Below, piece by piece: positions 49,389 to 52,736 of a DNA stretch of 64,000 nucleotides. Source of the DNA: Pelagomonas calceolata (Eukaryota); assembly GCA_918797485.1 (NCBI GenBank), contig CAKKNE010000005.1:558001-622000 (forward strand). The letters are read 5' to 3'. A program made the position numbers and the translations under genes. Position 1 is the first letter of the stretch, and each line of letters opens with the position of its first letter. The notes beneath the pieces are model-generated. The model ran no database searches. It was not told the DNA's origin and was given only the letters and a program-made list of their open reading frames with translations.

Positions 49389-52300
49389 ATGGGCGCGGGC
49401 GTCTCGACGGAAGGCGCCCCCCTCACTAGAATCAAATGCAAAAACAACCTCGGCGTGCTGTTTGACCCCAAGGCCGAGGAGGCATTCCGTGCCGCCGCGA
49501 CCGGTCCGGAAGACGAGCTCAGCGTGCCCTGGCCCGAAGTCGACGCGTACGTCAAGACGCGCGACGAGCGTTGGCGCGACCCGAAGCACGTCTTGTTCCA
49601 GAACCTGAAACAATTTAGGGTTGCTCGGGTCGAGATCGAGAAAATTGCGGACGAGATGATTCAAGGCACAATCAATGAGATCCCGTGGCGCAGCGGCGAC
49701 GAGTGCCAACAGCGCGGCCTCGACGGCAAGCCGACAGCGTCGCTCGACCCGCTGTACGAGATCGCCGCGATGGCGCGCGAGGTCTACGCCGAAGTTATGA
49801 ATGACGTGTGCGAGGGCGGTCCGCCCCTGAATCTGGCACCGCTGAAGGGCCGCGCGCGAGCCGAGGTGAAAGCGCAGAACGAGTACAACAACAAGACGGC
49901 GCCGTGCTACTCGTGGCTCTTCGACATCGTGCGAGGCTTCGTGTATTGCGACCACGAGGACGAACTGGTCGCGCTCTGGCATAAGATCGAGGCGGACCCG
50001 CGCATGAAAATTGTTCGAACGAAAAATCGTTTCAATCCCCCTCTGTTCAACGGCTACCGCGACATCATGATGAACGTCGCGGTGAAGGTCGAGAATGTTT
50101 CGCACCTCTGCGAGCTGCAGATCCACTTGACGGCGATCAAGGACTCTGAGCCGATGCACAAGAGCCACGCCGTCTACGAGTTCTTTCGAGATTTCTTTAA
50201 GGGAAACGCCGAGGCGGTCGAGCAGCGGCTGGACATGTTCTGTGCGCTGCCGGTCGACGACGTTAACGATGCGGAAGAGCTGGTGGACGTCGTACTTGAC
50301 TCTGCGACGAGTTACGGGCAGCTCTACAGTCTCTGCGATCTGCTCAAGTCGATTCAGGAGTCCGCGGGCGTCGTGAAGGTCCGGAAAGCTATCCTAACGG
50401 TGCAGGAGCGAAGGTTTGGTGCGGAGAGCAAGGAGGTGGGCGCGGCGCTGTTTGATCTTGGGAACGCGTACATGGGCCTCGGCGACCACGCCAAGCAACG
50501 CGACGTGCTGGAGCGCACGTTGGCGATCGCGGAGCGCGAGCACGGTAAAGATAGTACGAACGTGGCCGGCTTGTTGAATAATCTCGGGACCGCGTACGGC
50601 AACTTGGGTGACTACGCGAGGACGCGAGACGTGCTGGAGCGCACGTTGGCGATCGCGGAGCGCGAGTACGGTAGCGATCACACAGAGGTTGCCATCGTGC
50701 TGACGAACCTCGGGGTCGCGTACGGCTATTTGGGCGACGACGCGAAGAAGCGAGACGTGCTGGAGCGCTCGCTCGCGATCAACGAGCGGGTGTACGGCCG
50801 CGACCACACGAGCGTGGCCGCCACGCTGACGAACCTCGGGTGCGCGTACGGCGACTTGGGCGACCACGCGAAGAAGCAAGACATGCTGGAGCGCGCGCTC
50901 GCGATCAAGGAGCGGGCGTACGGCCGCGACCACCCGCAAGTCGCCATCACGCTGGAAAACCTCGGGGCCGCGTACGGCCAATTAGGCGACCACGCCAAGG
51001 CGCGAGACATGATGGAGCGCGCGCTCGCGATCCAGGAGCGGGCGTACGGCCCCGAACATCAAATGACCCAACGAGTCCGAGCTTGCCTCGACGTTGTGCA
51101 AGCCGATTTAAAGTTTCCGCTGCACGCTGCGACAAAGAGAGGCGACCTCGATGCGATGACGCGGCTCCTGGACGAGGGCGCCGCGGTAGATACTAAGCTA
51201 AACGGCAAGACACCGTTGTATTTTGCGTGCGAGAAGGGCCACGTCGACGCGGTGCGGCTATGCCTGGACAACGGCGCAGAGGTCGACCAGGCGGGTGAGG
51301 ACGGCTATACGCCGCTGATGATCGCCTGCTGGAACGGCCACGTCGACGCGGTGCGGCTGTTGCTGGACAACGGCGCGGAGGTCGACCGGGCGGATAAGGA
51401 CGGTCGGACGCCGCTATGGACAGCATGCTACGAGGGCAACGTCGACGCGATGCGGCTGTTGCTGGACAACGGCGCAGAGGTCGACCAGGCGAATAAGTAC
51501 GGTGTGACGCCGCTGTACATCGCCTGCTCGAAGGGCCACGTCGATGCGGCGCGACTATTGCTGGACAACGGCGCGGAGGTCGACCGGGCGGATAAGGACG
51601 GTCGGACGCCGTTGATGATCGCCTGCATGTTCGGCCACGTCGACGCGGCGCGGCTGTTGCTGGACAACGGCGCGGAGGTCGACCGGGCGACGGAGGACGG
51701 TGCGACGCCGCTGATGATCGCCTGCTCGAAGGGCCACGTCGACGTGGCGCGGCTGTTGCTGGACAATGGCGCGGAGGTCGACCGGGCGACGGAGGACGGT
51801 GCGACGCCGCTGATGATCGCCTGCTCGAAGGGCCACGTCGACGTGGCGCGGCTGTTGTTAGATAAAGGCGCGGAGGTCGATCGGGCGAAGAACAACGGCT
51901 GTACGCCGCTGTTTGTTGCCTGCCACTCTGGCCACGTCGACGCGGCGCGGCTGCTACTGGAGAAAGGCGCGGAGGTTGACCGGGCGGACGAGGAGGGTCG
52001 GACGCCGCTGTTTGTTGCCTGCTGGGAGGGCCACGTCGACGTGGCGCGGCTGTTGTTAGATAAAGGCGCGGAGGTCGATCGGGCGAAGAACAACGGCTGT
52101 ACGCCGCTGATGATCGCCTGCCACTCTGGCCACGTCGACGCGGCGCGGCTGTTGCTGGACAACGGCGCGGAGGTCGACCGGGCGACGGAGGACGGTCGGA
52201 CGCCGCTATGGACAGCATGCTACGAGGGCAACGTCGACGCGGTGCGGCTGCTACTGGAGAAAGGCGCGGAGGTTGACCGGGCGGACGAGGAGGGTCAGAC

Positions 52301-52736
52301 GCCGCTGTTTGTTGCCTGCTGGGAGGGCCACGTCGACGCGGCGCGGCTGTTGCTGGACAACGGCGCGGAGGTCGACCGGGCAGACAATGATGGTGAGACA
52401 CCACTGTCAATCGCGAAAAGCGAAGATTACTCGTCCATCGTCGCGCTGCTCGAGGAGCATATTAACCCGCTGCACGCGGCGGCCAAGACCGGCGATATCG
52501 ACGCGATGACGCAGCTCCTGAACGACGGCGCCGAGGTCGACCGGGCGAATGAGAAGGGCAGGACGCCGCTATGGATCGCCTGCCTAAAAGGCCACGTCGA
52601 CGCGGCGCGGCTGTTGCTGGACAAAGGCGCGGACGGCAATCGGACCTTGGAGAACGGCGAGACGCCGCTGTGCGTCGCAAAAAGAAAAGGCCACGCGGCC
52701 GTCGTCGCATTGCTCGAGGAGGTGCGGGAAGCTTAA
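49389..52736 (+). CDS. RelA/SpoT-like nucleotidyltransferase + TPR array + ankyrin arrays
   Basis: MGAGVS; LKGRARAEVK, DIVRG, KNRF, NGYRD, ELQIH; about 5 42-aa TPR repeats; 17 ankyrin repeats. Confidence 0.85.
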   Translation: MGAGVSTEGAPLTRIKCKNNLGVLFDPKAEEAFRAAATGPEDELSVPWPEVDAYVKTRDERWRDPKHVLFQNLKQFRVARVEIEKIADEMIQGTINEIPWRSGDECQQRGLDGKPTASLDPLYEIAAMAREVYAEVMNDVCEGGPPLNLAPLKGRARAEVKAQNEYNNKTAPCYSWLFDIVRGFVYCDHEDELVALWHKIEADPRMKIVRTKNRFNPPLFNGYRDIMMNVAVKVENVSHLCELQIHLTAIKDSEPMHKSHAVYEFFRDFFKGNAEAVEQRLDMFCALPVDDVNDAEELVDVVLDSATSYGQLYSLCDLLKSIQESAGVVKVRKAILTVQERRFGAESKEVGAALFDLGNAYMGLGDHAKQRDVLERTLAIAEREHGKDSTNVAGLLNNLGTAYGNLGDYARTRDVLERTLAIAEREYGSDHTEVAIVLTNLGVAYGYLGDDAKKRDVLERSLAINERVYGRDHTSVAATLTNLGCAYGDLGDHAKKQDMLERALAIKERAYGRDHPQVAITLENLGAAYGQLGDHAKARDMMERALAIQERAYGPEHQMTQRVRACLDVVQADLKFPLHAATKRGDLDAMTRLLDEGAAVDTKLNGKTPLYFACEKGHVDAVRLCLDNGAEVDQAGEDGYTPLMIACWNGHVDAVRLLLDNGAEVDRADKDGRTPLWTACYEGNVDAMRLLLDNGAEVDQANKYGVTPLYIACSKGHVDAARLLLDNGAEVDRADKDGRTPLMIACMFGHVDAARLLLDNGAEVDRATEDGATPLMIACSKGHVDVARLLLDNGAEVDRATEDGATPLMIACSKGHVDVARLLLDKGAEVDRAKNNGCTPLFVACHSGHVDAARLLLEKGAEVDRADEEGRTPLFVACWEGHVDVARLLLDKGAEVDRAKNNGCTPLMIACHSGHVDAARLLLDNGAEVDRATEDGRTPLWTACYEGNVDAVRLLLEKGAEVDRADEEGQTPLFVACWEGHVDAARLLLDNGAEVDRADNDGETPLSIAKSEDYSSIVALLEEHINPLHAAAKTGDIDAMTQLLNDGAEVDRANEKGRTPLWIACLKGHVDAARLLLDKGADGNRTLENGETPLCVAKRKGHAAVVALLEEVREA

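What the first reader, a model, noticed from the sequence alone, without database searches (positions are those of the whole stretch)
49389..52736. Candidate algal immune receptor: RelA/SpoT-like nucleotidyltransferase coupled to TPR and ankyrin sensor arrays
Seen: an intronless 1115-aa ORF with an N-terminal MGxxxS myristoylation pattern. A domain at ~49830-50130 carries RelA/SpoT synthetase-like motifs in the right order (LKGRARAEVK, FDIVRG, KNRF, NGYRD, CELQIH), followed by ~5 TPR repeats and two capped ankyrin solenoids. I see no hydrolase, TGS or ACT domain and no plastid leader, and GYxSLH is replaced by GYRDIM. Known: small RelA/SpoT enzymes (toxSAS, CapRel) act as toxic or anti-phage effectors in bacteria, and fungal NLRs use TPR/ANK arrays as sensors. 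Inference: a membrane-tethered sensor-effector that makes a nucleotide signal or pyrophosphorylates a target, possibly antiviral.
Basis: partly seen in the sequence, partly recalled or inferred. Interest (0 to 1): 0.85.

Follow-up and report, generated by a model that had tools for sequence, protein, structure and literature searches.

The report
Algal toxin-type alarmone enzyme with sensors
A transcribed algal gene joins a domain predicted to make bacterial-style alarm nucleotides to binding repeats whose layout differs in the matching gene of a relative, and it likely works as a sensor that halts or kills its own cell when it detects an invader.

Summary
The 1115-aa ORF is transcribed with no splice joint seen. 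Residues ~105-290 fold (AlphaFold, pLDDT 88) as a RelA/SpoT-homologue (RSH) synthetase: the 11 best structural matches are all RSH enzymes (Z 8.7-14.3; next fold 7.2). Catalytic Asp/Glu are kept in 237 of 240 family domains. The ATP-site motifs (PxK, R, DxxR) are those of the (p)ppApp toxin Tas1, not of Rel/RelA or plastid RSH, and the nearest bacterial relatives sit in injected toxins or beside hydrolase or immunity-type genes; the acceptor loop, however, resembles RelP, so the product is not settled. The family is large (2522 clusters at E<=1e-10), mostly TPR-fused among those scanned, in pelagophytes, diatoms, Parmales and cryptophytes. The syntenic orthologue has another repeat tail; other copies are broken or swapped between loci. 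It is not an NLR: no NTPase module. Best reading: a membrane-anchored, ligand-gated pyrophosphokinase of cell-autonomous defence, probably making (p)ppApp. Activity, gating and any viral trigger are untested; long diatom members and expression in culture also fit ordinary cytosolic signalling.

The parts
49389..52736 (+). Whole gene, 1115 aa, single exon as far as reads show
49389..49409 (+). MGAGVST, N-myristoylation-type start (predicted, pattern recalled)
   Evidence: a like motif in 52 of 59 pelagophyte-type N-termini; absent from nearly all long diatom members
49416..49688 (+). Helical N-lobe (aa 10-100), pelagophyte subfamily, no known family
   Evidence: folded with pLDDT 82-94; dN/dS 0.14 for aa 1-100; no Atlas hit
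49701..50258 (+). RSH synthetase (pyrophosphokinase) domain with Tas1-type ATP-site motifs; K153, R157, K161, D179, R182, K212, R214, Y223, D225, E242, Q244, H246
50259..50429 (+). Three-helix linker leading into the TPR solenoid
50430..51113 (+). Five 42-aa TPR units (79-107 of 126 nt identical pairwise) and capping helix
51114..52454 (+). Ankyrin solenoid 1: N-cap, 12 near-identical internal repeats (68-91 of 99 nt identical), C-cap; variable binding face
52455..52733 (+). Ankyrin solenoid 2: N-cap, one internal repeat, C-cap

Best explanation
This is an expressed gene for a predicted RelA/SpoT-type pyrophosphokinase of the bacterial toxin lineage, fused to variable TPR and ankyrin repeats, that likely acts as a ligand-gated self-poisoning defence enzyme in the algal cytosol. 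Shown: transcription, domain layout, conserved catalytic residues, Tas1-type ATP-site motifs, a multi-copy family with changing repeat tails. Predicted: the RSH fold. Inferred: (1) myristoylation holds it on an inner membrane face, outside the plastid; (2) the TPR solenoid keeps the enzyme off; (3) a foreign protein, for example of a giant virus, binds the TPR/ankyrin face and releases it; (4) it moves pyrophosphate from ATP to the 3'-OH of a free nucleotide, most likely AMP/ADP/ATP, giving (p)ppApp; (5) ATP drain and blocked purine synthesis stop the infected cell.
For: Fold: top 11 of 48,161 chains are RSH, Z 8.7-14.3, Tas1 Z 12.0 with rmsd 3.0 A over 156 residues; Foldseek agrees. Census of 240 full domains from 247 proteins: K153 238, R157 232 (+6 K), K161 239, D179 237, R182 240, D225 240, E242 237, Q244 236. 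By spacing against FaRel2 residues listed in PMC11782079 (passages), the two adenine-stacking arginines are missing and replaced by PxK / R / DxxR, exactly as in active Tas1 (alignments). With a broad profile Tas1 is the best PDB sequence hit (8.9e-14; RelP 1.3e-10). The canonical G-loop His and Lys are absent (position 227: L 132, N 62, M 17 of 240, Tas1 has N). Bacterial relatives: two eCIS-core proteins with tandem copies (P0183, P0212); a phage gene after the portal followed by a small ORF and an HD hydrolase, the layout described for Apk2-Tis1-Aph (PMC10083569); a SUKH immunity-family gene next downstream in 2 of 2 Shewanella loci examined (of 5). Turnover: syntenic orthologue L001 (flanks 80-87% identical) has 6 TPR + 4 ANK + 3 TPR against 5 TPR + 14 + 3 ANK here; dN/dS core 0.17, first two TPRs 0.65, five neighbour genes 0.07-0.22; five copies named for one Aureococcus strain; at a second locus L011 holds a truncated gene 85% like the window gene but 67% like its positional orthologue L006, and L017 has three in-frame stops. 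Ankyrin face pN/pS 1.47 against 0.26 elsewhere; identical stretches of 53-90 nt shared between repeats 1-8 units apart.
Against: No activity, ligand, toxicity or infection data. The Tas1 sequence match covers only the N-half (profile 5-79); the acceptor loop KNRF..P..NGYRD aligns better with RelP/RelQ, and RelP, RelQ and CapRel score above Tas1 structurally (Z 14.3, 13.4, 12.7 vs 12.0; Tas1 is rank 43). The tree leaves the algal clade, Tas1-like and other bacterial groups in an open fork, is the quick tree only, warns of long branches meeting, and lacks CapRel, FaRel, fungal and plastid RSH rows. No dN/dS above 1 between orthologues; the ankyrin ratio uses non-independent pairs, and binding faces vary in most ankyrin proteins. 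Broken or swapped copies come from metagenome assemblies and may be errors or chimeras. Many diatom members are 1500-1900 aa, alike in layout and without the MG start, which looks like a conserved orthologue. No PADLOC model matches (0 of 12). Photobacterium and Azospirillum relatives show no obvious immunity neighbour. No hydrolase gene lies in the window or in 32 algal loci. Residue conservation is partly built in, as members were found with the family profile.
Confidence: 0.45

Rival explanations
1. A cytosolic second-messenger enzyme of ordinary stress or nutrient signalling: it makes low levels of (p)ppGpp or (p)ppApp under control of endogenous partners bound by the repeats.
For: RelP-like acceptor loop and RelP/RelQ as top structural hits; expressed in culture; long, uniform diatom members; accessory WWE, C1, EF-hand, GNAT and LNR domains in relatives.
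Against: Repeat layout changes at one locus, copies break and swap, TPR dN/dS is three or more times that of neighbours; bacterial kin lie in toxin contexts; the family groups away from Rel/RelA/SpoT/RelP/RelQ (SH-aLRT 99).
Confidence: 0.27
2. [quoted passage not shown]
For: CapRel is the fourth structural hit (Z 12.7, 170 residues) and is a fused sensor-toxin; an N-terminal helical lobe precedes the domain, as does the tRNA-binding extension of FaRel2; guanine-type loop residues are absent.
Against: CapRel/FaRel2 keep the canonical RxK and DxxGxR motifs (FaRel2 R64, G93, R95), which this family lacks; the profile does not hit CapRel or FaRel2 sequences at E<=1; conserved basic residues K212, R214, R224 and H246 flank the acceptor Tyr, as expected for a phosphate-bearing nucleotide acceptor (inference; no surface charge was computed).
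Confidence: 0.15
3. A dead enzyme used as a scaffold or nucleotide-binding switch, or a selfish repeat family without function.
For: Pfam score below cut-off; canonical arginines lost; several copies broken.
Against: Catalytic Asp/Glu in 237 of 240; the same substitutions occur in active Tas1; core dN/dS 0.17; transcribed.
Confidence: 0.07

Closest known systems
Tas1/Apk1 and Apk2, (p)ppApp synthetase toxins (PDB 6OX6; PMC10083569, passages)
   Same: RSH synthetase fold; PxK / R / DxxR ATP-site motifs; no hydrolase domain; closest bacterial relatives in toxin-type contexts
   Different: Eukaryotic, not secreted, fused to TPR/ankyrin; acceptor loop is RelP-like with an invariant Asp; no immunity gene beside it
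CapRel, fused anti-phage toxSAS (PDB 7ZTB; PMC11782079, passages)
   Same: Synthetase and sensor in one chain; proposed release on binding a foreign protein
   Different: Other motif type; sensor is a repeat solenoid, not a pseudo-zinc finger; tRNA target not shown here
Fungal RelA_SpoT-NACHT-WD40 NLRs (PMC4986451, passages)
   Same: N-terminal RSH effector plus highly similar internal repeats in a eukaryote
   Different: No NACHT/NB-ARC module here; kinship with the fungal domain was not tested
Plastid RSH1/RSH4 of algae, including green-algal RSH4 with TPR tail (PMC6881373, passages)
   Same: RSH synthetase, TPR tail in some
   Different: Those are plastid-targeted, with HD, TGS/ACT or EF-hand domains; this has an MG start, no leader and no such domain
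Unplaced divRel[S] of diatoms, Dictyostelium and fungi (PMC3153485, passages and table rows)
   Same: Synthetase-only, non-plastid RSH in heterokont algae
   Different: Listed only as miscellaneous, no TPR mention, none for Aureococcus; whether Phatr2|49781 belongs to this family was not tested
Ectocarpus NB-ARC-TPR and ROCO candidate receptors (PMC3341825, passages)
   Same: 42-aa TPR units, birth and death, shuffled repeats in an ochrophyte
   Different: There the repeats are exons and the module is an NTPase; here one exon and a synthetase

Membership tests
RSH synthetase superfamily | Pol-beta-like SYNTH fold | tested here: met
   (predicted model)
RSH synthetase superfamily | Catalytic Asp (Syn2), Glu/Gln (Syn4), basic Syn1 helix, G-loop Tyr | tested here: met
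   D179 237, E242 237, Q244 236, K153 238, K161 239, Y/F223 234 of 240
RSH synthetase superfamily | 3'-pyrophosphate transfer from ATP | not testable with these tools
   needs an assay
Long or plastid RSH (Rel, RelA, SpoT, RSH1-4) | HD hydrolase domain, TGS/ACT or EF-hand, plastid leader | tested here: not met
   no hydrophobic leader in the first 40 windows
Canonical SAS (RelP/RelQ) | RxKxxxS, DxxGxR and GYxSxH motifs | tested here: not met
   PxKxxxR, DxxR, GYRD-x-L/N/M; separate side of the tree
Tas1/Apk (p)ppApp synthetases | Tas1-type ATP-donor half | tested here: met
Tas1/Apk (p)ppApp synthetases | Acceptor loop like Tas1, one clade with Tas1 | tested here: inconclusive
   loop aligns with RelP; open fork in quick tree
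Tas1/Apk (p)ppApp synthetases | Delivery domain (PAAR/MuF) and adjacent immunity gene | tested here: not met
Tas1/Apk (p)ppApp synthetases | Makes (p)ppApp, toxic | not testable with these tools
   needs an assay
NLR / STAND receptors | Central NACHT or NB-ARC NTPase | tested here: not met
   no Pfam hit; no GxxGxGK[ST] in 247 proteins
NLR / STAND receptors | Internally conserved repeats with variable face, copy-number change | tested here: met
CapRel / tRNA-targeting toxSAS | pZFD antitoxin domain and tRNA pyrophosphorylation | tested here: inconclusive
   no beta-rich pZFD outside the synthetase in the model of aa 1-579; activity untested

The most novel reading that the evidence does not exclude
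Ochrophyte algae carry a class of NTPase-free innate immune receptors, taken from bacterial (p)ppApp toxins, in which reshuffled TPR/ankyrin arrays sense viral proteins and directly switch on cytosolic (p)ppApp synthesis: a eukaryotic, alarmone-based suicide defence and a first cytosolic alarmone synthetase family in eukaryotes.
Probability: 0.3. Interest if true: 0.9.

Novelty: new variant of a known kind. Interest (0 to 1): 0.72.

Why it matters
A review read here states that ppGpp is found in eukaryotic cells but no cognate synthetase is known (PMC8118318). This family offers hundreds of intact, non-plastid candidates that can be assayed at once. If it is defensive, it adds an alarmone effector to the bacterial immune enzymes reused by eukaryotes, in abundant ocean algae whose virus resistance is poorly explained (recalled), and shows a receptor design without the usual NTPase switch.

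Tried and rejected
No whole genome is held, so paralogues in this genome were not counted; the window has no second copy. Viral contigs: 26 pattern matches, no relative. GTDB scan with an eCIS domain: none. PADLOC, NCBIfam, PHROGs: nothing for the window domain. The phage small ORF did not match Tis1 by sequence, so the Apk2-type reading rests on gene order. Careful tree unfinished after two runs. I first read five loci of one metagenome record as five copies of one genome; L006 and L011 share flanks, so that was dropped. My notebook count for L001 (7+4+4) was corrected to 6+4+3 on recount. ESM Atlas: only unnamed or TPR clusters, nothing for the N-lobe. Antisense ORFs 49290-49982 and 51193-52218 were treated as shadows of a GC-rich gene and not tested. 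The Tas1 paper (Ahmad 2019) is not held.

Full report
Observation. The ORF, motifs and repeat blocks are as described. Neighbours are ordinary eukaryotic genes (IFT52, OTU, VPS9, URO-D) and GC3 of the gene (0.79-0.85) lies at the upper end of that of 11 neighbours (0.66-0.84), so it is a resident nuclear gene. Named relatives point to a pelagophyte. PolyA reads from four runs of at most one sample cover all bins on the sense strand, calibrated by the flanking + and - genes; depth is about 1-19 over the enzyme region; a third of the reads run on into unlike sequence, so depth in the repeats includes paralogues; no GT..AG joint among 15 shown.

The domain is an RSH synthetase. Pfam RelA_SpoT is sub-threshold for the window but passes in relatives P0147, P0155 and P0212 (3 of 58 scanned), and UniRef already labels some Pelagomonas and Aureococcus members 'RelA/SpoT domain-containing'. 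A 12-row family profile hits RelP, Tas1 and RelQ in the PDB. The AlphaFold model of aa 1-349 (75 rows, pLDDT 87.8) matches RSH enzymes in Foldseek and VIA-align, where ranks 1-11 are RSH (Z 14.3-8.7) and the next fold scores 7.2. In 240 full domains from 247 proteins (7 proteins or split models lacked a full core) the catalytic positions are near-invariant; the set was found with the profile, which favours this.

Which RSH. Measured by spacing against FaRel2 (R64, K66, S70, K74, D90, G93, R95, Y128, E145, Q147; PMC11782079, passages), the family keeps K, K, D, Y, E, Q but has P at R64, R at S70, R at G93 and a small or aromatic residue at R95. Tas1 shows the same changes. Adding bacterial rows makes Tas1 the best PDB hit, over the N-half only. 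The acceptor loop aligns with RelP's but lacks its Lys and His and adds an invariant Asp. That those two basic residues read guanine is recalled, not read here. RelP/RelQ/CapRel outscore Tas1 in Z, Tas1 has the lower rmsd. A quick tree of 84 rows separates Rel/RelA/SpoT/RelP/RelQ from all others (SH-aLRT 99), with 53 of 54 rows I class as eukaryotic in one clade (88) and 44 mostly TPR-type rows at 96; relations to the Tas1 homologue L036 are open, and long branches meet. The eukaryotic label of unnamed rows is my inference from architecture.

Bacterial context. The best bacterial-type hits include eCIS-core proteins with two copies. A Bordetella phage carries the domain after the portal gene, followed by a 69-aa ORF and an HD hydrolase, as in Apk2 operons (PMC10083569, passages). 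Deinococcus has HTH - domain - small ORF. Shewanella has a signal-peptide-like form with a SUKH gene downstream in both loci examined of five; Photobacterium has two tandem copies and Azospirillum one, without such a neighbour. Phage proteins annotated RelA/SpoT or Tas1 are among the viral structural hits. RelA/SpoT-like toxin domains were described in polymorphic toxins (PMC3482391, passages).

Family behaviour. The profile finds 6557 clusters at E<=0.001, 2522 at 1e-10 and 245 at 1e-30; only the best 150 were seen. Of 58 scanned, 44 carry TPR families, some with WWE, C1, EF-hand, GNAT or LNR. Named members are from Pelagomonas, Aureococcus, Nitzschia, Cylindrotheca, Pseudo-nitzschia-type models, Triparma and Guillardia. 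L001 is the syntenic orthologue: same enzyme, tail 6 TPR + 4 ANK + 3 TPR, and a frame break after the core that may be an assembly error. Pairwise dN/dS: N-lobe 0.14, first helix 0.38, core 0.17, linker 0.36, TPR1-2 0.65 (83 codons, register uncertain), neighbours 0.07-0.22. At another locus three contigs share flanks: L006 intact, L017 with three stops, L011 truncated and closer to the window gene (85%) than to L006 (67%) despite flanks 77-92% alike; conversion between loci or a chimeric contig. Within the gene, 12 ankyrin units are 68-91 of 99 nt identical, with pN/pS 1.47 at six face positions chosen beforehand from recalled DARPin design and 0.26 at 26 others; this is descriptive, not a test. 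Such repeats mark fungal NLRs (PMC4986451) and Ectocarpus candidates (PMC3341825).

Mechanism. Best reading (0.45): lipid-anchored, repeat-gated synthetase making a toxic nucleotide, probably (p)ppApp, on sensing an invader. Rivals: ordinary cytosolic signalling (0.27), tRNA pyrophosphorylation (0.15), dead enzyme (0.07). Gating, ligand, product and role are all inferred.

Novelty. Ten literature searches found no description of a Tas1-type synthetase-TPR family in algae. Limits: 'RelA SpoT' with a space misses the slash spelling; most subscription papers are absent; the RSH database supplement of 10.1101/575399 (passages read; bioRxiv supplements are closed) covers eukaryotes and may list members; file 1 of the PMC3153485 supplement was unreadable. 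Atkinson 2011 noted unplaced divRel in two diatoms. PMC6881373, PMC8118318, PMC10802352 (nothing used) and PMC9815663 were read as passages; SUKH as immunity family is from a search listing only (PMC3113570). Verdict: real, a new variant of a known kind, directly testable.

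Noticed in passing
P0220, P0181, P0201, P0235: A sister group of 1200-1450 aa proteins with two copies of the domain and hydrophobic, membrane-like stretches; P0220 is from Guillardia theta. Possibly receptor-type alarmone synthetases.
   Followed up: partly
P0003 aa 860-1024: A pelagophyte-type member with a second, divergent synthetase copy after the TPRs, grouping with the cryptophyte type.
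   Followed up: partly
L001, ankyrin-to-TPR junction near 7870-7920: The fourth ankyrin repeat runs into a TPR half-unit at a short motif common to both repeat types (LLER), suggesting recombination at microhomology.
   Followed up: no
L010:7700-8581; L032:3278-4300: One member ends in ankyrin + SPRY; a divergent one has an LRR-like tail by eye (no Pfam hit).
   Followed up: partly
L044-L048, L033: Shewanella and Photobacterium single-domain relatives with signal-peptide-like starts; SUKH_5 and DUF4447 genes follow in Shewanella. Possibly exported alarmone synthetases.
   Followed up: partly
window 49648-50371: Low antisense read depth (0.06-4) over the enzyme region in all four runs; also a 20-nt repeat joint at 49316/49297 in the leader.
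   Followed up: no
window 32970-37028 (+): 1352-aa open frame with DUF285 repeats, another repeat-array surface-type protein.
   Followed up: no
window 44293-45801 (+): Nitroreductase gene largely missing from the orthologous stretch of L001.
   Followed up: no
BFVD hits: Weak structural hit to a 170-aa 'Nucleotidyltransferase relA/spot protein' of the giant virus Fadolivirus (E 0.013).
   Followed up: no
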